A DNA stretch of 46,124 nucleotides from an uncultured Candidatus Saccharibacteria bacterium (GTDB taxonomy: Bacteria; Patescibacteriota; Minisyncoccia; Minisyncoccales; CAYTKG01), in assembly GCA_964501525.1 (NCBI GenBank), contig CAZCSI010000002.1, positions 1 to 46,124 on the forward strand. The letters run 5' to 3'. A model generated the notes under the pieces. That model saw only the letters and a list, made by a program, of their open reading frames with translations, was not told the DNA's origin and did not search any database. The position numbers and the translations under genes were made by a program. Below are positions 14,843 through 21,956 of the stretch, piece after piece; the first letter of the stretch is position 1, and every line of letters begins with the position of its first letter.

Positions 14843-16457
14843 TAAAACAAAATATATTTTCGTGGTCGGAGGTGTAATGTCAGGTATTGGAAAGGGGATC
14901 GCCACCGCCTCGATGGGCAGGATACTTCAGGACAAAGGCTACAAGGTGAGCGCCATAAAGATCGACCCTTATGTGAATGTTGACGCCGGGACAATGAATC
15001 CTGTAGAACACGGCGAGGTTTTTGTCACCGAAGACGGAATAGAATGTGATCAGGACGGCGGAAATTATGAAAGATTTTTGGATATCAATTTCTGCGATGA
15101 GAACTACATCACTACGGGCCGAGTTTATAAAACAGTCATTGAAAGAGAAAGAAGTCTGGGTTACGGGGGTAGGTGTGTGGAGGTGGTGCCCGATATACCG
15201 GACGAGGTTATTTCCCGGATAGAAAAAGTAGGGGAGAGCAATAAAGCGGATTTTGTCCTTATTGAGATCGGCGGCACTGTAGGGGAGTACCAAAATATGC
15301 TCTTTTTGGAAGCGGCCCGGATGATGAAGTTGAAAAATCCCGGAAGGGTAATTTTTGTTTTAATAAGTTACCTGCCTCTTCCGGCCACGATAGGCGAGAT
15401 GAAAACCAAGCCCACTCAGCAGGCAGCCAAATGGCTCAATATGGCTGGCATACAACCGGATATCATTTTAGCCAGGGCTTCCGTTCCCTTGGATGAACCC
15501 AGAAAGAATAAAATATCCACTTTTTGCAGCGTAGAAAGCGAAGATGTTGTTTCCGCCCCTAACGTGAAGATGGTGTATGAGGTTCCCTTGAATTTTGAAG
15601 AGGATAAGTTGGGACAAAGAATCTTGGCTAAATTTGATATGAAGCCCAAGAAAAAAGGCGGGATGGAGCAATGGAAAGGTTTTTTAGAAAAAGCAAAAAA
15701 AGCTGAGCAGACCGTGAAAGTAGGTCTGGTCGGCAAGTACTTTAAAACAGGCGATTTCGTATTAAAAGACTCTTATATCTCTGTTATTGAGGCAGTAAAG
15801 CATGCGGCGTGGCATTTGGATAAAAAACCGGAGATAAAATGGTTCTCAGCTGAGAACTATGAAAAAGACTCTTCTCTTTTAAAAGAACTTGAAGAGTGTG
15901 ATGCGGTAATTATTTTAGGCGGTTTCGGAAACCGGGGAATAGAAGGTAAAATCAAAGCTATCAATTTCTGCAGAAAAGGCAATATTCCCTGCCTCGGTCT
16001 TTGTCTGGGGCTTCAGTTGATGGTGGTAGAGTGGGCTCGTAATGTCTGCGGACTAAAAGAAGCGAACTCGGTAGAGTTCAACCCTGATACTCCTCATCCG
16101 GTTATTGACACTATGGTTGAGCAGAAGAAGCTGATCAAGAAAAACCGGTACGGCGCCACTATGAGATTGGGAAGCTACAAGTGTGAGCTTAAAAAAGGCA
16201 CCAAAGCCAGAAAAGCCTACGGCCAAAAAGAGATTTTTGAACGACACAGACACCGTTATGAAGTTAACAATAAGTACAGGGAAGTTTTAAAAGAAAAAGG
16301 TATGATAATGGCCGGCGTCAACCTCAAAAGAGACCTGGTAGAGATCGTGGAAATAAAAAAGCATCCCTTTATGGTAGGGACGCAGTTTCATCCGGAGTTT
16401 AAGTCAAGGCCTTTTCGGCCCCATCCTCTATTTTTAGCTCTGCTCAAGCAAAATTAA
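14835..16457 (+). CDS. pyrG: CTP synthase
   Basis: KYIFVVGGVMSGIGKGIATAS, the glutaminase CLGLQ cysteine and QFHPEF are present in a 540-aa protein. Confidence 0.95.
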   Translation: MSDKTKYIFVVGGVMSGIGKGIATASMGRILQDKGYKVSAIKIDPYVNVDAGTMNPVEHGEVFVTEDGIECDQDGGNYERFLDINFCDENYITTGRVYKTVIERERSLGYGGRCVEVVPDIPDEVISRIEKVGESNKADFVLIEIGGTVGEYQNMLFLEAARMMKLKNPGRVIFVLISYLPLPATIGEMKTKPTQQAAKWLNMAGIQPDIILARASVPLDEPRKNKISTFCSVESEDVVSAPNVKMVYEVPLNFEEDKLGQRILAKFDMKPKKKGGMEQWKGFLEKAKKAEQTVKVGLVGKYFKTGDFVLKDSYISVIEAVKHAAWHLDKKPEIKWFSAENYEKDSSLLKELEECDAVIILGGFGNRGIEGKIKAINFCRKGNIPCLGLCLGLQLMVVEWARNVCGLKEANSVEFNPDTPHPVIDTMVEQKKLIKKNRYGATMRLGSYKCELKKGTKARKAYGQKEIFERHRHRYEVNNKYREVLKEKGMIMAGVNLKRDLVEIVEIKKHPFMVGTQFHPEFKSRPFRPHPLFLALLKQN

Positions 16458-16489
16458 ACTTTGCTCAACCAAACAGAACCCAATACGAG

Positions 16490-16768
16490 TTACGCTGTCA
16501 CTACATTGACAATTTTAACTTTTCGTGGGCTTTTATCAAATCCCCGGATTTTTTTAGATTGGAACTTAATAACCCCGTCCGATAGGGCATAGAGGGTGTC
16601 ATCCCGGCCTCTTTTAACGTTTTTGCCAGGCATGATTTTAGTCCCGCGCTGGCGCACGATAATCTGTCCGGTCTTAACTTTTTGCCCGCCGTACAGTTTT
16701 ACACCGAGATACTTTGGTTTGGAGTCGCGGTGGCCTCCTGATGCTTTTTTAGTTTTTGTCTTTGCCAT
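16490..16768 (-). CDS. rpmA: 50S ribosomal protein L27
   Basis: [34 protein letters not shown] is canonical L27. No rplU gene is adjacent. Confidence 0.95.
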
Positions 16769-16800
16769 ATGATTTTTTATAACTATACGAACCTCATTAT

Positions 16801-17007
16801 ATGATTAATCTATCAGAAATAAAAGATTTTTTCAAGGAAAAAGAAAAAGAGTTGGTATTGGCCCTGATTGTCTTCCTGCTCTGTCTTTTATGTTTTGGAT
16901 TCGGCTATATCTGGGGAGTGCGCAGCCAAAAACAACCCCTGAAGTTTGAGACGACTAAGCAAGTGGACGAAACAAGATACTATTCTTTTAAGGGGTGGAA
17001 CTTGTAG
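16801..17007 (+). CDS. hypothetical small membrane protein (68 aa)
   Basis: It has a single hydrophobic helix, no recognisable family and no clear SD. It overlaps the 3' end of the recombinase gene convergently. Confidence 0.3.
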
Positions 17008-17921
17008 TGGCTTTTTCTAGCATGGCGGTCAGATATCTTTACGTACCGAGTAGTAGTATCTAAAGACTCGTGGCCAAGGAGTCGTTGGATATCAGCTGGG
17101 TTGGCACCACTTTCTGCCAGATAGGTTGCATAGGCTCTTCGAAGACCATGAGGAGTAAGAGAGACATTTAATCCTAAAAGTTCTCTATATTGTTTTGATT
17201 TTTCCTGGATGTAGTTTGCAGAAAGACTTTTGTCCTTTTTTGAAACATCGGGGCCCCGGAAAGGAATAAAGACATAGGGAGTTTCTTGTTCTCCTCGGAT
17301 TTCAAAGTAATTTTCTAGATGTTCTATTGCTCTTGGAGTAAGATAGACAAAACGTTCCTTTTGACCTTTTCCGTGAACCAAAACTCTACCGTTTTTTTCA
17401 ATATCACTCATTTTCATTTTAATAAGTTCTGAGATACGCATTCCTGTAGAGAAAAAGACTTCTAGAATGGCCCTGTTTCTTAAGGCTATTTTTTCATTTT
17501 TTTCAAACTTACTCGGGGACTCTATGAAGTCAATAACTTTTTCTAATTCAGCCACTCTGGGACTTTTAGTTGCTGTTTTGATTAATTTAACGCTTTCAGG
17601 AGAGACCGGTGTTTCATAATCCATATCTAGTAAGAATTTGAGATAAGAGCGGAGAGCAGAGATCATTCTGTTGATTGAATGACCGCTTAACTTTTTTTGA
17701 GCCGCCTCTCCTTTTGGCGTTTTTCTGTCTCGGGAAGACAAATAAGCCTTGTAATTCAGTATCGTCTTTTTATTGATGTTTTCGAAGTTGAGCTCCATCT
17801 CTTTCAGGAAGATCTTAAAAACCTCTAAATCCCTCTCATAATTATATAGAGTTTCGTCGGAGTAATTATTTGCCTTTAAATTTAGAAGAAAGTCTTCTAT
17901 AAAGGGAAGTTCTATGCTCAT
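16980..17921 (-). CDS. tyrosine recombinase (XerC/XerD/integrase family), catalytic residues intact
   Basis: It has a SAM-like N-domain. Catalytic elements are present: TGMRISEL (Arg I), HGKGQKER (Lys), TPHGLRRAYAT (His-x-x-Arg) and LLGHESLDTTTRYV (His II, Tyr). Confidence 0.9.
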   Translation of the reverse strand: MSIELPFIEDFLLNLKANNYSDETLYNYERDLEVFKIFLKEMELNFENINKKTILNYKAYLSSRDRKTPKGEAAQKKLSGHSINRMISALRSYLKFLLDMDYETPVSPESVKLIKTATKSPRVAELEKVIDFIESPSKFEKNEKIALRNRAILEVFFSTGMRISELIKMKMSDIEKNGRVLVHGKGQKERFVYLTPRAIEHLENYFEIRGEQETPYVFIPFRGPDVSKKDKSLSANYIQEKSKQYRELLGLNVSLTPHGLRRAYATYLAESGANPADIQRLLGHESLDTTTRYVKISDRHARKSHYKFHPLKE

Positions 17922-19339
17922 GTTTTAAATTCGATTAGATAATGTTTAGTTGGAATAATAAGAAAAATAGTATCTTTCGCGGTTAAGAGATTATACCAGA
18001 GCTTGAATAAAGAAACTGTACCTATTTCTATATAAACCTGTGTTGTCTCCGAGCTAACGCCTAAATCAGCTCTCCCATGTGGTAGAGACGGTTCTATGCT
18101 GACCTTATACCCCTTGTTTTTAAAATGATTTGTCGTAACATTCATTAATCTTCTATGCCATTGCTTACCGTGCGTGGTCACTTTTTCAACATCTTTATAA
18201 TTTACTTGGTTCCATAAGCTTTTATTCTCTAACTTGAGTTTGGTAGCTTTAACGTTGCCGCTTAATATTAAAACAGCGATTCTTCTTCTAAGACAGAGGT
18301 TGCAATTAATTAAGTAAGATTCTGGTTGGTAATCCGGGGAGATCGTATCAATGTTTTCTTTAAGCCACAGCGTTTCCTTTCTGATTGCTTTTTCTGTTTT
18401 ATGCCAAGAAACAGTTCTTGACCCATCTTTGTGATCTTTTCTGCTTTCGGGTGCGTAGTCCTTAATGTATTTCTCTTTGTGGGTTAAAAACGGATAAGGA
18501 ATTTTCAGTTGTGAACTCTTGCGCAATAATCTTATCTTATGAATATTTCTTAGTGCCTCGGGAGTCAATAGGGGAGAGAGGTCGTTTTGAGAAACATATC
18601 TTTTAATTCTTCTTTCTATGCTTCGACCAGTCAACCTAGACCTTGGTGATCTGCCCCTGTAGTTTATAAATAAAGCTTTTCGTTTGTCTGTTCTTTTATT
18701 TAAATATTCCTTCATTAGATTACTTGTGCTTCTAGGCAGAACAACGTAAGAAGTTGGTTCTTCCTGAATCTCCACCTGAACTCTTTCTGCCTTTCTTTTA
18801 ATTACCTGACTTCGATTTAGGAGTACTAATTTGTTTAATTTAAGCCCCGTTTCTATCAGTACTTCGATTATAATTCTGTCTCTTAGTCCTGTTTTTGTCG
18901 AGGTATCAGGAGCTTGGATTAGTTCTTTGAGAGCCTCTTGCTCTATGTAGCTTTCTAATTTAGTGGAACGTGATTTCCCTGTCATCACGCTTTTTTCTAA
19001 CCGTACGCTCTGAGGTGATAAAGAGCTTAGGCCTTGCTCACTAAAGTATGAAAGAAGAATACGCAGGCCGGTTAGATAAGCATTTTGGGTGTTTTTGGCT
19101 AACGATCCATTTAATAAGGATTCTTTATAATTTTCAATATGGGTCAGTGTTAAGTCGTGAGGAGGTAGATGTTCTATTTTCTTCTGTTTGAGCCAATCTA
19201 AAAACTTATTGATAAAATTTTCATAATTTTCAACACTTTTATCAGTTAGCTTTCTTTCTTTTCTGCAATACTCAAGGAAGGAGGGGATATGTTCAACTAT
19301 TGAGGTGGTTGAGTCTTTCACCGTTGTTTTATCGAGCAT
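17918..19339 (-). CDS. tyrosine-recombinase-like protein with degenerate active site and ~180-aa C-terminal extension (possible PD-(D/E)xK-like segment)
   Basis: The N-terminal core-binding-like region is VENYENFINKFLDWL. The catalytic-domain homologue reads TGLKLNKL (Arg I to Lys) and TPEALRN (His to Glu), and the beta-hairpin Lys is absent. The C-terminus contains HGRADLGV...VYIEIG. An ATGA overlap links it to the downstream recombinase. Confidence 0.7.
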   Translation of the reverse strand: MLDKTTVKDSTTSIVEHIPSFLEYCRKERKLTDKSVENYENFINKFLDWLKQKKIEHLPPHDLTLTHIENYKESLLNGSLAKNTQNAYLTGLRILLSYFSEQGLSSLSPQSVRLEKSVMTGKSRSTKLESYIEQEALKELIQAPDTSTKTGLRDRIIIEVLIETGLKLNKLVLLNRSQVIKRKAERVQVEIQEEPTSYVVLPRSTSNLMKEYLNKRTDKRKALFINYRGRSPRSRLTGRSIERRIKRYVSQNDLSPLLTPEALRNIHKIRLLRKSSQLKIPYPFLTHKEKYIKDYAPESRKDHKDGSRTVSWHKTEKAIRKETLWLKENIDTISPDYQPESYLINCNLCLRRRIAVLILSGNVKATKLKLENKSLWNQVNYKDVEKVTTHGKQWHRRLMNVTTNHFKNKGYKVSIEPSLPHGRADLGVSSETTQVYIEIGTVSLFKLWYNLLTAKDTIFLIIPTKHYLIEFKT

Positions 19340-19420
19340 TAGAAGAATTATACTCAGTTCCTATGATAATAAATATAGGGAGAAAAGTCAACTCCCCTGA
19401 CTTGCTTCACCTCTTGTCCA

Positions 19421-19801
19421 TTAAAGGTTGACCTCTTGTTCTTCTTTCTCTCCGTTTATCCATCCCATCATCTCTTTAAAGCTCTGCCACAACTCCTGTC
19501 TCTCTTTACGCCACTCTTCTCTAAAAATACTTTTTCTATAATAAAACTGTTCTTTGAAAAAAGTAAAACATCTCTCCCCCAGCTGTTCTATCTTATTTAA
19601 AGAGAAACTTGTCCATATCGGCCTTATATCTTCGATGATAGAGCCTCCTGCCCCTATACAGGCCTTAAAAGCCTTTTTAAGCGTTTCTCCAACTCCTAGT
19701 AGTATATTACTACTTGTTTCCCGTACATTTGCTTGTACTTGAAGACAAACAAGAAATAAAAAAATAAGAATAAAAAGAGTTAAATAAAGATTTCTTTTCA
19801 T
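19421..19801 (-). CDS. hypothetical secreted protein (signal peptide, 126 aa)
   Basis: The N-terminus MKRNLYLTLFILIFLFLVCLQVQA looks like a signal peptide. Its start overlaps the gltX stop (ATGA). No family was recognised. Confidence 0.55.
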   Translation of the reverse strand: MKRNLYLTLFILIFLFLVCLQVQANVRETSSNILLGVGETLKKAFKACIGAGGSIIEDIRPIWTSFSLNKIEQLGERCFTFFKEQFYYRKSIFREEWRKERQELWQSFKEMMGWINGEKEEQEVNL

Positions 19802-21348
19802 TTTTCAAGCATCTGCTTAGCTCTTTTAATTCTTTTGAGAGTCATCTCTTTACCTAAAATGGCGGCTACCTCAAATGGTCCGGCTGAGGCCTTTTGTCCG
19901 GTTAAAGCTACCCGCAGGGGCCACAAAAGGTATCCTCTATTGTCTTTGTCTCTCAGCTCACGGCCCCACTCTTTGGCTGCCGGAAGAAGCACATTTTGAA
20001 GCTCACTTTCACTCCACTTTTCTTCACTTATATCAGACAATAGATTATATAATCTGTCAAGAGAAAGGACAGCCTCTGAAAAATTTTGGTCTTTCCAAAG
20101 CAATAACTCCGGAGAATAATCAATCTTGTCTTTTAAAAAGAATCCGGCCAGCTCTGATATCTCAGACAGTTTTTTGAGCCGATCCTGATAAAGGACAACT
20201 ATGTTTTCCATCTTTCTTTTTCCAATCTTTTGTCCTGTTTCGGAGACAATATAGCCCTGGTCTGTCTCTTGAATTAAGTCGTCTTTGATTAAATAAGGAA
20301 GACATTCCGGCATCAGTTTTTCCGCTGACAAATTTCTGATATGAACCCCGTTGATATAATTGAGCCGTTTTCTGTTGAAAACAGCGCCCGCGCTCCTTAC
20401 CCTGTCCAGGGAAAAATCTTTTATCAGTCCTTTCATGCCGTAAATTTCTTTGGGAGTGCCGGGGTTCCACCCTAAAAAAGAAATAAAGTTCACCAGCGCC
20501 TGGGGCAGGTAGCCGTCTTTTTTAAACTCTTCGACAGAAACCGAGCCGTGTCTTTTGGAAAGCTTGCTTTTGTCCGGAGCCAGGATAAGGGGCAGGTGGG
20601 CAAAACGGGGTGCGTCCCAGCCAAAGGCTTCATAGAGAAGTATTTGTTTAGGTGTGTTGGGAACATGGTCCTCGCCTCGTATAACATGACTGATCTTCAT
20701 CATGTGGTCGTCCACAACGCAGGCTAAATTATAAAGAGGCTGGGTAAGTTTTTTAGCTAATGAGAAGTCGCCGAAAAGAGAGGCGTCGAACTTCACCTCC
20801 TCTCTGACTAAATCTTCAAAAACAACTTTTTTTCTCGGAGTCTTGAACCGGATAACGTAACTTTCTTCTTTCTCTATTCTTTTTCGGATCTCCTCTTGGC
20901 TTAAATCCCGGCAATGGCCGTTGTAAACCGGAGGCTGTCCGATACTCATAAAATATTGGCGTTGAGCCTCTAAGTCTTCCTCCGAGCAAAAACAGTAATA
21001 CGCTTTTTTTTCCTCTAACAATTTTTTCAGATGCAGCTTGTATACCTCTCCCCTCTCGCTTTGCCTGTAAGGTCCGTATCGTCCACCCTTATTGGGTCCT
21101 TCGTCCCACTCCATACCCAGCCAGGATAGGTTATCGTAAATAACCTCTTCGTATTTTTGTTTTGATCTCTGCTTATCCGTATCTTCTATTCTGAGTATGA
21201 AACGGCCTTCATTTTTTCTGGTAAAAAGGTAATTAAAAAGAGCGGTGCGCGCACTGCCGATATGAAGATAGCCGGTAGGAGAAGGTGCGAACCGGGTCCT
21301 GATCTCCCCTGCCCTCTTTAACTTAAATTCTTGTTTTTTAGGGTTCAT
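19798..21348 (-). CDS. gltX: glutamyl-tRNA synthetase
   Basis: RTRFAPSPTGYLHIGSARTALFNY (HIGH region) and KLSKRHG (KMSKS) are present in a 516-aa protein. Confidence 0.95.
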   Translation of the reverse strand: MNPKKQEFKLKRAGEIRTRFAPSPTGYLHIGSARTALFNYLFTRKNEGRFILRIEDTDKQRSKQKYEEVIYDNLSWLGMEWDEGPNKGGRYGPYRQSERGEVYKLHLKKLLEEKKAYYCFCSEEDLEAQRQYFMSIGQPPVYNGHCRDLSQEEIRKRIEKEESYVIRFKTPRKKVVFEDLVREEVKFDASLFGDFSLAKKLTQPLYNLACVVDDHMMKISHVIRGEDHVPNTPKQILLYEAFGWDAPRFAHLPLILAPDKSKLSKRHGSVSVEEFKKDGYLPQALVNFISFLGWNPGTPKEIYGMKGLIKDFSLDRVRSAGAVFNRKRLNYINGVHIRNLSAEKLMPECLPYLIKDDLIQETDQGYIVSETGQKIGKRKMENIVVLYQDRLKKLSEISELAGFFLKDKIDYSPELLLWKDQNFSEAVLSLDRLYNLLSDISEEKWSESELQNVLLPAAKEWGRELRDKDNRGYLLWPLRVALTGQKASAGPFEVAAILGKEMTLKRIKRAKQMLEK

Positions 21349-21355
21349 TACCTAT

Positions 21356-21384
21356 ATTTTGATACAATTAACTGTTTTAGTCAA
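21356..21384 (-). promoter_or_regulatory. putative gltX promoter (leaderless geometry)
   Basis: On the minus strand: TTGACT (21384-21379), a 17-nt spacer, CAAAAT (21361-21356), then 7 nt and ATG at 21348. There is no SD in between. Confidence 0.5.
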
Positions 21385-21392
21385 ATCTAAAC

Positions 21393-21420
21393 TTGACAGG
21401 CTACCAAAGGTACTTATAAT
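21393..21420 (+). promoter_or_regulatory. consensus sigma70 promoter of the GC-rich orphan gene
   Basis: TTGACA (21393-21398), a 16-nt spacer, then TATAAT (21415-21420). It is divergent from, and 8 bp away from, the gltX -35 element. Confidence 0.6.
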
Positions 21421-21459
21421 AAAGTCAGTTTCCGCTCTTAATTACCAAGGAGGTTAAAG

Positions 21460-21825
21460 ATGCGCAAGTTTATTGGTTGGGCCGGCTGGTTCGTGCTTGT
21501 TGTGCTCTGGATATGGGTGGTCTTCCTTTTCGTCCTCCCCGCGATTCTTGGGATTGCTCCGCCTTGGATTAAGGAGGGCGAGGGTCTGGGCGCGCCGAGT
21601 CATGATTGTGGTTCCTTTCAAGGGATCACATATTATGATGGAGCTATCATTATCTACCTTCTCCAGGACGGAAAGATGGAGATAGTGCGTCTCAACCGCG
21701 ATTACCATCCCATAGGGATGGAGGAAGGGTTGGAGCTCCGTCCGGGGGCGCTCATCTGCGTGCACAAGTACCACAAGGTGTCGGGTGGAGCAGATTATGC
21801 CCGCATCGAGGGTTGGGGGCAGTGA
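21460..21825 (+). CDS. hypothetical membrane-anchored protein (121 aa), compositionally atypical (~58-63% GC in sampled 60-mers)
   Basis: AGGAGG lies 7 nt upstream of the ATG, with a consensus promoter upstream and a hairpin terminator downstream. It has an N-terminal TM helix. No family was recognised. Confidence 0.6.
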   Translation: MRKFIGWAGWFVLVVLWIWVVFLFVLPAILGIAPPWIKEGEGLGAPSHDCGSFQGITYYDGAIIIYLLQDGKMEIVRLNRDYHPIGMEEGLELRPGALICVHKYHKVSGGADYARIEGWGQ

Positions 21826-21860
21826 CGAGACCACCAGTGACGAGGCCACCATAGAAAGCG

Positions 21861-21890
21861 AAGAGAGCCAACTTTGGCTCTCTTTTACTT
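21861..21890. terminator. rho-independent terminator, probably bidirectional (orphan gene and murG converge on it)
   Basis: AGAGAGCCA-actt-TGGCTCTCT forms a perfect 9-10 bp stem, followed by TTTACTTTC on the + strand. Confidence 0.65.
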
Positions 21891-21956
21891 TCTGAGTGTG
21901 TTAGATGGGTATATCAACACGGTTGTCAGGCGAAGTGCAACTTCAGGGCGGGGACG

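What the first reader, a model, noticed from the sequence alone, without database searches (positions are those of the whole stretch)
16980..19339. AT-rich two-gene module: intact tyrosine recombinase coupled to a catalytically degraded recombinase-like paralogue
Seen: two minus-strand genes share an ATGA stop/start overlap (17918-17921). The downstream 313-aa protein keeps the full R-K-H-R-H-Y set. The upstream 473-aa protein has the same two-domain layout, but Arg I is Lys (ETGLKLNKL, K167), the beta-hairpin Lys region reads EIQEEPT, and His I is Glu (TPEALRN, E261). Arg II, a His (FLTH) and nearby Tyr residues remain. Sampled 60-mers are about 30-43% GC, against about 45-57% in neighbouring housekeeping genes. 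A TATAAT (19352-19347) sits 7 nt upstream of the 19339 ATG with no SD, so the pair may be its own transcription unit. The module lies directly upstream of a solitary rpmA with no rplU partner. No flanking direct or inverted repeats were found by eye. Inference: this may be a heteromeric recombinase with one non-catalytic or regulatory subunit, possibly of foreign origin, rather than a standard XerC/XerD pair.
Basis: partly seen in the sequence, partly recalled or inferred. Interest (0 to 1): 0.65.

Follow-up and report, generated by a model that had tools for sequence, protein, structure and literature searches.

The report
Xer recombinase with dead nuclease-fused partner
In an uncultured Patescibacteria genome, the usual chromosome-unlinking recombinase slot holds one intact tyrosine recombinase, a sister recombinase that lost its DNA-cutting residues and is fused to a small, undescribed nuclease-like domain, and a dif-like DNA site just upstream; it is an unreported variant of a well-known system.

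Summary
Two overlapping minus-strand genes encode a canonical 313-aa tyrosine recombinase (RKHRHY) and a 473-aa paralogue with Arg I→Lys, no β-hairpin Lys and His I→Glu.

These substitutions are conserved, not decay: K in 78/83 relatives, E in 82/83. That domain occurs only fused to, or encoded next to, Xer genes of Patescibacteria.

About 170 related loci show that the module occupies the ancestral xer slot (murD-ftsW-murG-gltX-[xer]-rpmA-pyrG). It is not an island.

- The slot holds either a single "S-clade" Xer or modules built around a "P-clade" Xer, the clade of the window's 313-aa protein.
- P can stand alone with a near-invariant 28-bp dif-like palindrome just upstream.
- The window has a diverged copy at 19333-19356.

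Best reading: P is the working Xer, as in the XerS/XerH single-recombinase type. The long protein is a non-cleaving S-derived accessory subunit that carries the nuclease-like domain, whose role is unknown.

The low GC is real and is systematic for modules with this domain. No publication describing it was found. New variant of a known kind.

The parts
17918..19339 (-). Long gene (473 aa): an S-clade Xer paralogue with altered catalytic residues, fused to a C-terminal nuclease-like domain. Altered or retained sites are K167 (nt 18839-18841), no beta-hairpin Lys, E261 (18557-18559), R264, H287 and Y295.
   Evidence: The ORF is. Pfam Phage_integrase scores 56 bits and the SAM-like N-terminal domains are also found. 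The AF2 model has pLDDT 87.7, and its fold matches XerA, XerH and Cre over ~270-300 columns.
18452..18949 (-). Recombinase catalytic-fold region of the long protein (residues ~131-296), with the signature K / no Lys-beta / E / R / H / Y.
   Evidence: Among 83 relatives, Arg I is K in 78, His I is E in 82, Arg II is R in 83, His II is H in 78 and Tyr is Y in 73. The beta-hairpin is deleted in about half of them.
17921..18421 (-). C-terminal domain (residues 307-473): a PD-(D/E)XK-like fold. Conserved residues are W312, E316, H390, G391, W394, H395, E416-P417, G422-R-A-D425, E438-x-G-T-x-S-x-x-K446.
   Evidence: The AF2 domain model has pLDDT 87.3 and an alpha-beta-beta-beta-alpha-beta(beta) core. 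Foldseek hits are all weak: Hje 1ob8 E 8e-3, then Bax1, R2 RLE, Hjc and NucS in the PDB, and a PD-(D/E)XK nuclease plus HJ resolvases in BFVD. Pfam PDDEXK_9 is sub-threshold in 8/18 members. The same residues are >=90% conserved in 36 fused and 32 standalone copies. There are only 116 representative clusters among 1.84 billion proteins.
16980..17921 (-). Partner gene (313 aa): a canonical P-clade Xer-type tyrosine recombinase (RKHRHY). It is the likely catalytic enzyme of the module.
   Evidence: Mean identity within the P clade is 70%. At least 120 clusters are 63-70% identical to it. P occurs alone in the same slot in L166.
19333..19356 (.). Diverged copy of the family's dif-like imperfect palindrome. 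The minus strand reads TGAGTATAAT-TCTT-CTAATGCTCG. The left arm is perfect, the right arm matches 6/10, and the right arm overlaps the ATG at 19337-19339.
   Evidence: It is the only match in the window, with 3 mismatches to the degenerate family pattern and 0.01 expected by chance. The family consensus is aGTGAGTATAA|TATCCC|TTACACTCATa. It lies 8-37 bp upstream of the first module gene in most loci. It is full-length in 24 of 35 unique fused loci, and most of the rest carry variants.
19363..19391 (-). Likely promoter of the two-gene operon: TTGACT, 17 nt, TATCAT.
   Evidence: It is the best sigma-70-like match in 16400-19900 at 10/12. It is the positional equivalent of the TTGACA-17-TATTAT seen upstream of the site in relatives. 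It is a consensus match only, not evidence of function.
19421..19801 (-). 126-aa ORF with a signal-peptide-like N-terminus. It is the lowest-GC gene in the window. Positional counterparts of 115-141 aa lie between gltX and the module in related loci. Whether it belongs to the module is unknown.
   Evidence: See (GC 0.346, z -3.1). Counterparts were seen, and similar sequences in L001 and L166. It has no Pfam hit.

Best explanation
This is the Xer/dif-type chromosome-dimer-resolution module of a Patescibacteria (Paceibacterota/Parcubacteria-like) genome. It sits in the lineage's ancestral xer slot at the end of the cell-division (dcw) gene cluster: murD-ftsW-murG-gltX-[module]-rpmA-pyrG.

**The 313-aa protein.** It belongs to a well-conserved 'P' clade and is the only catalytically complete recombinase here. 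It most likely acts like a single-recombinase Xer (XerS/XerH style) on a 28-bp, 11-6-11 dif-like site that lies between the operon's promoter and its first start codon.

**The 473-aa protein.** It derives from the other, 'S' clade, which is the usual single Xer of this slot. In this branch the S-clade Xer became fused to a small Xer-associated PD-(D/E)XK-like protein. In related genomes that protein is a separate gene immediately downstream of xer. After a P-clade enzyme was present, the S part lost its cleavage chemistry (Arg I to Lys, beta-hairpin Lys lost, His I to Glu). It kept the fold, Arg II, His II and usually the Tyr.

**Proposed role.** The long protein is therefore a non-cleaving accessory subunit. 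It tethers the nuclease-like domain to the recombinase or to its DNA.

**Shown versus inferred.**
- Shown: the residue pattern, the domain, the synteny, the module variants, the conserved site and the composition.
- Inferred: that the site is the recombination site, that P acts on both of its arms, and what the nuclease-like domain does. It may process junctions or nicks, or it may control the reaction.
For: **Residue pattern.** It is conserved family-wide, so it is selected rather than decaying.

**Synteny.** The long form lies in the same slot in distant genomes. About 70 related genomes have one canonical Xer in that slot.

**The C-domain.**
- It exists as a separate 160-200-aa gene directly after xer, in arrangements [S][C], [S][C][S'/P] and [P][C].
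- The same residues are conserved in fused and free copies.
- It has a PD-(D/E)XK-like fold.

**Two clades.** Clustering puts the long form with S and the partner in P. Mean identities are F-S 0.44, F-P 0.27 and P-P 0.70.

**The site.**
- Site type A is found where P is the only intact recombinase, in [F][P], [P][C] and P-alone loci.
- Site type B is found where S is intact.
- Site A is nearly invariant in DNA although the proteins are ~40-70% identical.
- The window has one diverged copy.

**P can manage without the long protein.**
- P alone with site A occupies the slot in L166.
- In L169/L170 only a 95-aa remnant precedes P: the first ~30 aa of the long protein joined to the PD-(D/E)XK core.

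**Precedent.** difSL lies immediately upstream of xerS in all streptococci and lactococci analysed (PMC1914069).

**No mobility or defence signal**.
Against: - The window's copy of the site has a poorly matching right arm (6/10) that overlaps the start codon. It may not be functional, and the real site could lie outside the 46 kb.
- No experiment or whole-genome analysis shows that site A is unique per genome or sits at the replication terminus. Its position between promoter and ATG would also fit a simple operator.
- The long protein's recombinase part is under clear constraint (R264 invariant, E261 99%, K167 94%, Y295 88%). That is more than a passive tether needs and would fit a DNA-bound subunit of a heterotetramer.
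- All fold matches of the C-domain are weak (E >= 1.6e-3). The canonical Lys of the (D/E)xK motif is replaced by Gly440.
- The systematic low GC of the module is not explained by this model.
Confidence: 0.62

Rival explanations
1. Obligate hybrid machine. The long protein occupies one arm of the site and the 313-aa enzyme the other, in an XerC/XerD-like heterotetramer. The active partner exchanges one pair of strands to make a Holliday junction. The PD-(D/E)XK domain of the long protein, whose nearest structural relatives are Hjc/Hje/RecU-type resolvases, then cuts the other pair, and ligase seals the nicks.
For: - The long protein keeps the whole recombinase fold, the N-terminal DNA-binding domain, Arg II, His II and mostly Tyr.
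- Translational coupling through the ATGA overlap suggests a stoichiometric complex.
- The acidic residues E416, D425 and E438, plus K446, are invariant in fused and free copies.
- The best fold matches are junction resolvases.
- Loss of catalytic residues is seen only where a canonical partner is adjacent.
- The two arms of site A differ at two conserved positions.
Against: - The same asymmetric site A occurs in loci without any long protein: [P][C] in L137/L146/L151 and P alone in L166. The arm difference therefore does not require two different DNA-binding subunits, and P can evidently work alone.
- The free C-domain also accompanies single, fully canonical Xers that need no nuclease.
- Fold similarity to resolvases is weak and is typical of any minimal PD-(D/E)XK core.
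- The (D/E)xK lysine is missing at its usual place.
Confidence: 0.18
2. Selfish or horizontally exchanged cassette. Modules that carry the nuclease-like gene are mobile xer-dif cassettes, or a free-standing homing-type nuclease. They replace the resident xer-dif module in situ, and the long protein is a by-product of that history.
For: - All C-domain modules are lower in GC than their flanks whatever the host GC (0.32-0.47). The C-domain is the most AT-rich part, with dGC -0.054 to -0.058. Single-Xer loci show no dip.
- The distribution is patchy. Related genomes carry S alone, P alone, or various combinations in one slot.
- The site type switches together with the module type.
- The authors of PMC1914069 noted that a dif-next-to-xer organisation resembles integration modules.
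Against: - There are no relatives in 2.9 million viral contigs and no PHROGs or PADLOC hits.
- No flanking repeats or mobility genes were seen, and the flanks are housekeeping genes in conserved order.
- Long-term purifying selection on the C-domain and on the K/E pattern, across proteins only ~40% identical, is unlike the rapid decay expected of homing nucleases.
- AT-richness could reflect low expression or local mutation bias.
Confidence: 0.12
3. Functionless remnant. The long gene is an inactivated duplicate on its way to being lost.
For: - The recombinase part evolves faster than the partner (within-class identity 0.46 against 0.70).
- The beta-hairpin is deleted in about half of the members.
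- Some lineages have lost it (L166) or reduced it to 95 aa (L169/L170).
Against: - The reading frame is intact in >80 divergent members, with 29 invariant and ~60 nearly invariant columns.
- The substitutions are to the same residues family-wide.
- The structure is predicted with confidence.
- The promoter and translational coupling are conserved.
Confidence: 0.05

Closest known systems
Single-recombinase Xer/dif modules: XerS/difSL of streptococci and lactococci, XerH/difH of Helicobacter and Campylobacter
   Same: - One catalytically complete tyrosine recombinase is encoded directly beside an asymmetric, imperfectly palindromic site of about 28-31 bp.
- The site lies immediately upstream of the gene (PMC1914069).
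- XerH and XerA are among the best fold matches of the recombinase part.
- The P clade can occur alone with its site.
   Different: - The window's module adds a second, non-cleaving recombinase paralogue fused to a PD-(D/E)XK-like domain. Neither has a counterpart in XerS or XerH systems, to my knowledge.
- The site sequence differs (GTGAGTATAA|TATCCC|TTACACTCAT).
- Terminus location and FtsK dependence are untested.
XerC/XerD-dif of most bacteria
   Same: - Two paralogous Xer-type recombinases are present.
- The site has 11-6-11 geometry with inner TAA/TTA, as in dif.
- The presumed role is chromosome dimer resolution.
   Different: - Both XerC and XerD are catalytically active, and their genes are usually unlinked from each other and from dif. 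Here one paralogue lacks Arg I, Lys-beta and His I.
- Here the genes overlap and lie beside the site.
- NCBIfam equivalog scores are far below the cut-offs.
'Cand' subgroup of simple tyrosine recombinases (Smyshlyaev et al., bioRxiv 10.1101/542381)
   Same: It is a Xer-related subgroup found only in candidate phyla. The S and/or P clades described here very probably belong to it.
   Different: The text of that paper does not contain the terms 'inactive' or 'nuclease'. Whether S or P equals 'Cand' was not tested.
Archaeal Hjc/Hje and bacterial RecU Holliday-junction resolvases (minimal PD-(D/E)XK nucleases)
   Same: - The C-domain core has alpha-beta-beta-beta-alpha-beta topology.
- An Asp precedes strand 2 and a Glu lies in strand 3.
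- These enzymes are the best fold matches in two libraries.
   Different: - The matches are weak (E 1.6e-3 to 0.1, TM 0.3-0.5).
- There is no sequence-level match.
- Lys at +2 of the ExK motif is Gly, and a conserved Lys lies 8 residues on.
- The domain has an extra N-terminal helical part with conserved W312, E316 and H390-G-x-x-W-H395.
- Activity is untested.
TnsA-TnsB of Tn7 (functional analogy only)
   Same: A restriction-enzyme-like PD-(D/E)XK nuclease works in a complex with a recombinase of a different chemistry, so that each handles different strands. This rests on my own knowledge.
   Different: The proteins and chemistry are unrelated (a DDE transposase, not a tyrosine recombinase). 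There is no evidence here that the nuclease-like domain cuts DNA.

Membership tests
Tyrosine recombinase superfamily (Pfam PF00589 fold), 473-aa protein | Two-domain fold: an N-terminal SAM-like core-binding domain plus the C-terminal catalytic fold | tested here: met
   PF00589 scores 56.2 bits against a cut-off of 27.1, and PF13495/PF02899 are also found. The AF2 model matches XerA, XerH and Cre.
Tyrosine recombinase superfamily, 473-aa protein | Catalytic hexad Arg I, Lys-beta, His I, Arg II, His/Trp II, Tyr | tested here: not met
   The protein has K167, no Lys-beta, E261, R264, H287 and Y295. The same pattern holds in 78-83 of 83 relatives.
Tyrosine recombinase superfamily, 313-aa protein | Catalytic hexad | tested here: met
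   It reads RKHRHY by hmmalign. PF00589 scores 117 bits.
XerC / XerD equivalogs (TIGR02224, TIGR02225) | Score above NCBIfam's curated cut-off | tested here: not met
   The 313-aa protein scores 198/187 bits and the 473-aa protein 84/84 bits, against cut-offs of 335/330. Both are Xer-like, but neither qualifies as an equivalog.
Single-recombinase Xer/dif module (XerS/XerH type) | Recombinase gene directly adjacent to a conserved asymmetric ~28-31-bp site | tested here: met
   The site is conserved upstream of the module in relatives. The window holds a diverged copy at 19333-19356. That it is the recombination site is inferred, not shown.
Single-recombinase Xer/dif module | Site unique in the genome and located at the replication terminus | tested here: inconclusive
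   There is one copy in the 46-kb window. Genes converge at 16458-16489, and cumulative GC skew peaks at ~17-18 kb. However, skew follows gene strand here, and no whole genome could be read.
Single-recombinase Xer/dif module | One recombinase suffices | tested here: inconclusive
   P occurs alone with site A in L166. That is comparative evidence only.
PD-(D/E)XK nuclease superfamily, C-domain | alpha-beta-beta-beta-alpha-beta core fold | tested here: met
   The AF2 secondary structure shows it. The Foldseek top hits are all PD-(D/E)XK proteins, with probabilities of 0.9-1.0 but weak E-values.
PD-(D/E)XK nuclease superfamily, C-domain | Catalytic motif D ... (D/E)-x-K | tested here: inconclusive
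   D425 and E438 are invariant and lie in the right strands. The +2 position is G440, not Lys. K446, E416, T441 and S443 are invariant.
PD-(D/E)XK nuclease superfamily, C-domain | Significant match to a curated sequence family | tested here: not met
   PDDEXK_9 scores 16-19 bits against a cut-off of 25.5, in 8 of 18 members. There is nothing in the PDB sequences, PHROGs or PADLOC.
Holliday-junction resolvase (Hjc/RecU) | Dimeric, junction-specific cleavage | not testable with these tools
   Only a weak fold resemblance is available.
Integrative mobile element, prophage or genomic island | Flanking att repeats, mobility or phage genes, presence/absence at a variable locus | tested here: not met
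   The housekeeping flanks are conserved. No viral relatives were found. No structural variants appear in the source metagenome contigs. Low GC is the only island-like trait.

The most novel reading that the evidence does not exclude
The Xer-associated PD-(D/E)XK-like domain is an active, structure-specific nuclease recruited to the synapse by a catalytically dead recombinase. Chromosome unlinking in these reduced genomes would then be completed, or made irreversible, by hydrolytic cutting of the Holliday junction rather than by a second round of tyrosine-recombinase strand exchange. That would be a natural hybrid recombinase-nuclease resolution system.
Probability: 0.18. Interest if true: 0.85.

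Novelty: new variant of a known kind. Interest (0 to 1): 0.6.

Why it matters
- **A gap in Xer biology.** Xer/dif recombination is one of the best-understood site-specific recombination systems. I found no published description of it in Patescibacteria (CPR), a large share of bacterial diversity.
- **A natural series in one slot.** The same chromosomal slot holds a single Xer, a Xer plus a free nuclease-like protein, two Xers plus that protein, and finally a fused 'pseudo-recombinase' beside one active enzyme. Each arrangement has a matching dif-like site next to the genes.
- **Testable material.** This gives a candidate dif site for these uncultured organisms. It also gives a new small protein family (116 clusters, no curated family) that is strictly tied to Xer. 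And it gives a rare natural example of a tyrosine recombinase kept under selection after losing its cleavage residues.
- **If the domain is active.** The system would join recombinase and nuclease chemistry in one reaction.
- **If it is regulatory.** It may stand in for known Xer activation factors.

Tried and rejected
1. **Classical dif consensus** (RTAA-N6-TTATG). A search across 1.4 Mb of related loci gave 52 scattered hits with no positional consistency. The idea of a classical dif beside the module was rejected.
2. **Ancestral 'type B' site** (ATT[A/G]TGCGA...). It is absent from the window.
3. **Shared right arm of the type B site.** The right arm also occurs in a widespread motif, TAATATT[G/A]TGCGACATTTA. 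I first suspected extra recombination sites or terminal inverted repeats around xer. The motif in fact lies between stop codons and intrinsic terminators in many places. It is therefore a separate, unexplained element, and the window has no analogous repeated intergenic motif.
4. **Short inverted repeats** in 16400-19900 found with the repeat finder were only two coding-region palindromes.
5. **C-domain profile against PDB sequences** gave nothing meaningful. PHROGs and PADLOC also gave nothing.
6. **Viral contigs** held no relatives of the C-domain.
7. **Source reads.** Only low-depth contigs from a microbial-mat metagenome were available, and no joints or inversions appear at the module.
8. 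**'Heteromeric XerC/D-like pair'** was my working model until the clade analysis showed that P occurs alone and as [P][C] with the same site.
9. **GC skew as evidence for the terminus** was judged not separable from gene-strand bias in 46 kb.


Full report
**1. The observation**

The two minus-strand ORFs are as described: 17918-19339 (473 aa) and 16980-17921 (313 aa), overlapping in ATGA. Both match the tyrosine-recombinase catalytic domain and the SAM-like N-terminal domains. The long protein matches more weakly, at 56 against 117 bits.

A phmmer alignment to E. coli XerD (1a0p) gives these pairings:
- ETGLKLNKL with ATGLRVSEL, so Arg I is K167.
- TPEALRN with SPHVLRH, so His I is E261 and Arg II R264 is kept.
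- FLTH with LLGH, so His II H287 is kept.

The beta-hairpin carries no GKG lysine, and a Tyr (Y295) follows H287 at +8 instead of +9. The 313-aa protein reads RKHRHY.

The composition claim is also correct. The long gene, its partner and the neighbouring 126-aa ORF are the three lowest-GC genes of 48 in the window, with GC3 of 0.31-0.35 against 0.46+-0.05.

**2.

A database search found about 85 full-length relatives of 425-500 aa at 34-44% identity, from Patescibacteria/Parcubacteria assemblies. It also found many ~315-aa proteins that cover only the first 60% of the query.

In 83 long relatives the catalytic columns read as follows:

| Position | Residue | Count |
|---|---|---|
| Arg I | K | 78 |
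| His I | E | 82 |
| Arg II | R | 83 |
| His II | H | 78 |
| Tyr | Y | 73 |

The beta-hairpin is deleted outright in about half of them. The 35 short relatives keep the canonical residues. The pattern is therefore a selected state, not random decay.

Residues ~307-473 are a separate conserved domain. Its invariant residues are W312, E316, G391, W394, H395, E416, P417, G422, R423, D425, E438, T441, S443 and K446.

- AlphaFold models are confident: full length pLDDT 87.7, domain alone 87.3.
- The N-terminal two-thirds match XerA, XerH and Cre.
- The C-domain has an alpha-beta-beta-beta-alpha-beta(beta) core.
- Its best matches in the PDB are the junction resolvases Hje/Hjc, Bax1, the R2 restriction-like endonuclease and NucS.
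- In the viral structure library they are a PD-(D/E)XK nuclease and putative junction resolvases.
- All these matches are weak, with E from 1.6e-3 upward.
- Pfam PDDEXK_9 hits 8 of 18 members below threshold. PDB sequences, PHROGs and PADLOC give nothing.

D425 precedes strand 2 and E438 lies in strand 3, as in the PD-(D/E)XK motif. The +2 lysine is Gly440, and a conserved Lys (K446) sits on the next helix.

An exhaustive HMMER search of 1.84 billion representatives finds only 116 clusters. Apart from fragments, all are either fused (~430-500 aa) or standalone (~160-195 aa).

**3. The locus is the ancestral xer slot, and it holds a series of module types**

Contexts of three distant long-form proteins show the same order: murD-ftsW-murG-gltX-small ORF-[module]-rpmA-pyrG(convergent)-rplI-ctpB. 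The window has exactly this order.

I surveyed 80 loci from species-representative genomes, 80 metagenome loci found with the C-domain and five more. Each recombinase ORF was classified by its catalytic hexad after hmmalign. The arrangements found were:

- About 70-80 loci with one canonical Xer.
- [canonical Xer][free C-domain gene] (for example L128, L137, L143, L151).
- [Xer][C][second canonical recombinase] (L067, L110, L119-L125, L132-L134, L150, L152, L163).
- [fused K-ER form][canonical partner] in about 35 unique loci, including the window.
- Intermediates: fused forms reading R-HRHV (L010/L155) or R-ER (L099, L100, L109).
- [canonical Xer][fused form] (L001).

The same C-domain residues are >=90% conserved in 36 fused and 32 free copies. 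Loss of catalytic residues is seen only in the fused form, and only with a canonical recombinase next door.

**4. Two recombinase clades**

Average-linkage clustering of the recombinase domains gives two clades.

- Clade S holds the single Xers of the slot, the Xers upstream of free C-domains, and the degenerate fused forms. F-S identity is 0.44 and F-F is 0.46.
- Clade P holds the window's 313-aa protein, 29 other partners, the third gene of six [S][C][P] loci, and the first gene of the [P][C] loci. P-P identity is 0.70, P-S is 0.37 and P-F is 0.27.

P is large and conserved, with at least 120 clusters at 63-70% identity to the window protein.

P also occurs alone in the same slot (L166). In L169/L170 it is preceded only by a 95-aa ORF. 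That ORF consists of the first ~30 residues of the long protein joined in frame to the PD-(D/E)XK core.

**5. A conserved dif-like site beside the genes**

K-mer enrichment in the flanks revealed two site types.

*Type A.* Fused-type, [P][C] and P-alone loci carry aGTGAGTATAA|TATCCC|TTACACTCATa.
- It is an 11-6-11 imperfect palindrome with inner TAA/TTA, as in dif.
- It lies 8-37 bp upstream of the first module gene and downstream of a TTGACA-17-TATTAT promoter.
- It is full-length in 24 of 35 unique fused loci, and most others have close variants.
- Its DNA is nearly invariant although the proteins are 40-70% identical.

*Type B.* Loci with an intact S-clade Xer carry a different site...TTCGCTTAAg-tata-ATTATGCGAAC or ATGTCGCTTAA|CCTACA|TTGTGCGACAT, 26-190 bp upstream.

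Site type thus follows whichever recombinase clade is catalytically intact.

This gene-site adjacency parallels XerS/difSL, where difSL lies immediately upstream of xerS in all species analysed (PMC1914069).

*In the window.* The degenerate type A pattern matches once, at 19333-19356, with 3 mismatches and 0.01 expected by chance. The right arm matches 6/10 and overlaps the ATG. The best promoter-like element is TTGACT-17-TATCAT at 19391-19363. Whether the window's diverged copy works is open.

**6. Composition and origin**

The low GC is not peculiar to this window.
- All 18 fused loci and 17 of 18 free-C loci are lower in GC than their flanks, by -0.036 and -0.043 on average.
- The 64 single-Xer loci show no dip (+0.009).
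- The C-domain is the most AT-rich part, at -0.054 to -0.058.

This fits exchange of whole xer-dif cassettes between lineages, or a local bias. It does not fit a phage, plasmid or defence island:
- No viral relatives were found.
- The flanks are housekeeping genes.
- No structural variants appear in the microbial-mat metagenome contigs that hold the sequence.

**7. Interpretation**

*Best supported (0.62).* The 313-aa P-clade enzyme is the working Xer and acts on the adjacent dif-like site in the manner of single-recombinase systems. The 473-aa protein is an S-clade paralogue that became fused to its Xer-associated nuclease-like partner and then lost its cleavage chemistry. It now serves as a non-cleaving accessory subunit.

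*Main rival (0.18).* The pair forms an obligate heterotetramer in which the nuclease-like domain resolves the junction made by the one active subunit. In its favour are the strong constraint on the dead recombinase fold and the invariant acidic residues. Against it, the same asymmetric site serves loci with no long protein.

*Other rivals.* A selfish or transferred cassette (0.12) and a functionless remnant (0.05).

**8. Novelty**

Literature searches found no description of Xer/dif in CPR bacteria. They also found no tyrosine recombinase paired with or fused to a PD-(D/E)XK domain. A 'Cand' subgroup of Xer-like recombinases from candidate phyla is known (10.1101/542381), but the terms 'inactive' and 'nuclease' do not occur in that paper's text.

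I rate this a new variant of a known kind, of moderate-to-good interest.

Noticed in passing
window 16801-17007 (+): A 68-aa ORF with a transmembrane-like segment converges on the 313-aa gene and overlaps its 3' end by 28 nt. Homologues lie at the same position, between xer and rpmA on the opposite strand, in at least eight related loci. It is probably a real small gene.
   Followed up: partly
related loci (e.g. L004 ~10393, L026, L028, L032, L037); absent from the window: A ~20-nt motif, TAATATT[G/A]TGCGACATTTA, recurs about once per 12 kb in related genomes. It often sits between a stop codon and an intrinsic terminator hairpin. Its core equals the right arm of the type B site upstream of xer, and the two vary together (G or A) between genomes. 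Its function is unknown.
   Followed up: partly
L169 3709-3996 and L170 3706-3993: A 95-aa ORF sits directly upstream of a P-clade xer. It joins the first ~30 residues of the long protein in frame to the PD-(D/E)XK core (EP..GRAD..E.GT.S..K). This is a natural internal deletion that removes the whole recombinase fold, and it was seen in two independent assemblies.
   Followed up: partly
window 17919 (metagenome contigs of runs X1 and X2): One contig in each of two runs matches the 5' end of the 313-aa gene and then diverges exactly at the gene boundary. It continues into unrelated sequence with a GAGG-like ribosome-binding site. A related population in the same mat seems to carry a P-like gene without this long gene upstream.
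   Followed up: no
window 16458-16489 and the whole-window skew: Genes converge between pyrG (+) and rpmA (-), with only 32 bp between them. Cumulative GC skew peaks at about 17-18 kb, right at the module. This is terminus-like, but skew in this window largely follows gene strand.
   Followed up: partly
window 21349-21956: A 600-bp gap between gltX and murG holds a plus-strand 121-aa ORF (21460-21825) with an N-terminal transmembrane segment and no Pfam match. It lies opposite to all its neighbours, and local GC is higher (0.475).
   Followed up: partly
window 19421-19801 (-): A 126-aa ORF with a signal-peptide-like start is the lowest-GC gene of the window (0.346). Its start overlaps the gltX stop. 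Fast-evolving positional counterparts of 115-141 aa, with a similar W/F-rich, Lys/Glu-rich C-terminus, occur in related loci (L001, L166).
   Followed up: partly
window 15079-15768 (inside pyrG): One contig in each of runs X1 and X2 skips 688 bases inside pyrG (depth 9-12), with only 20 nt on the shorter side. It is probably a contig from a related organism or an assembly artefact.
   Followed up: no
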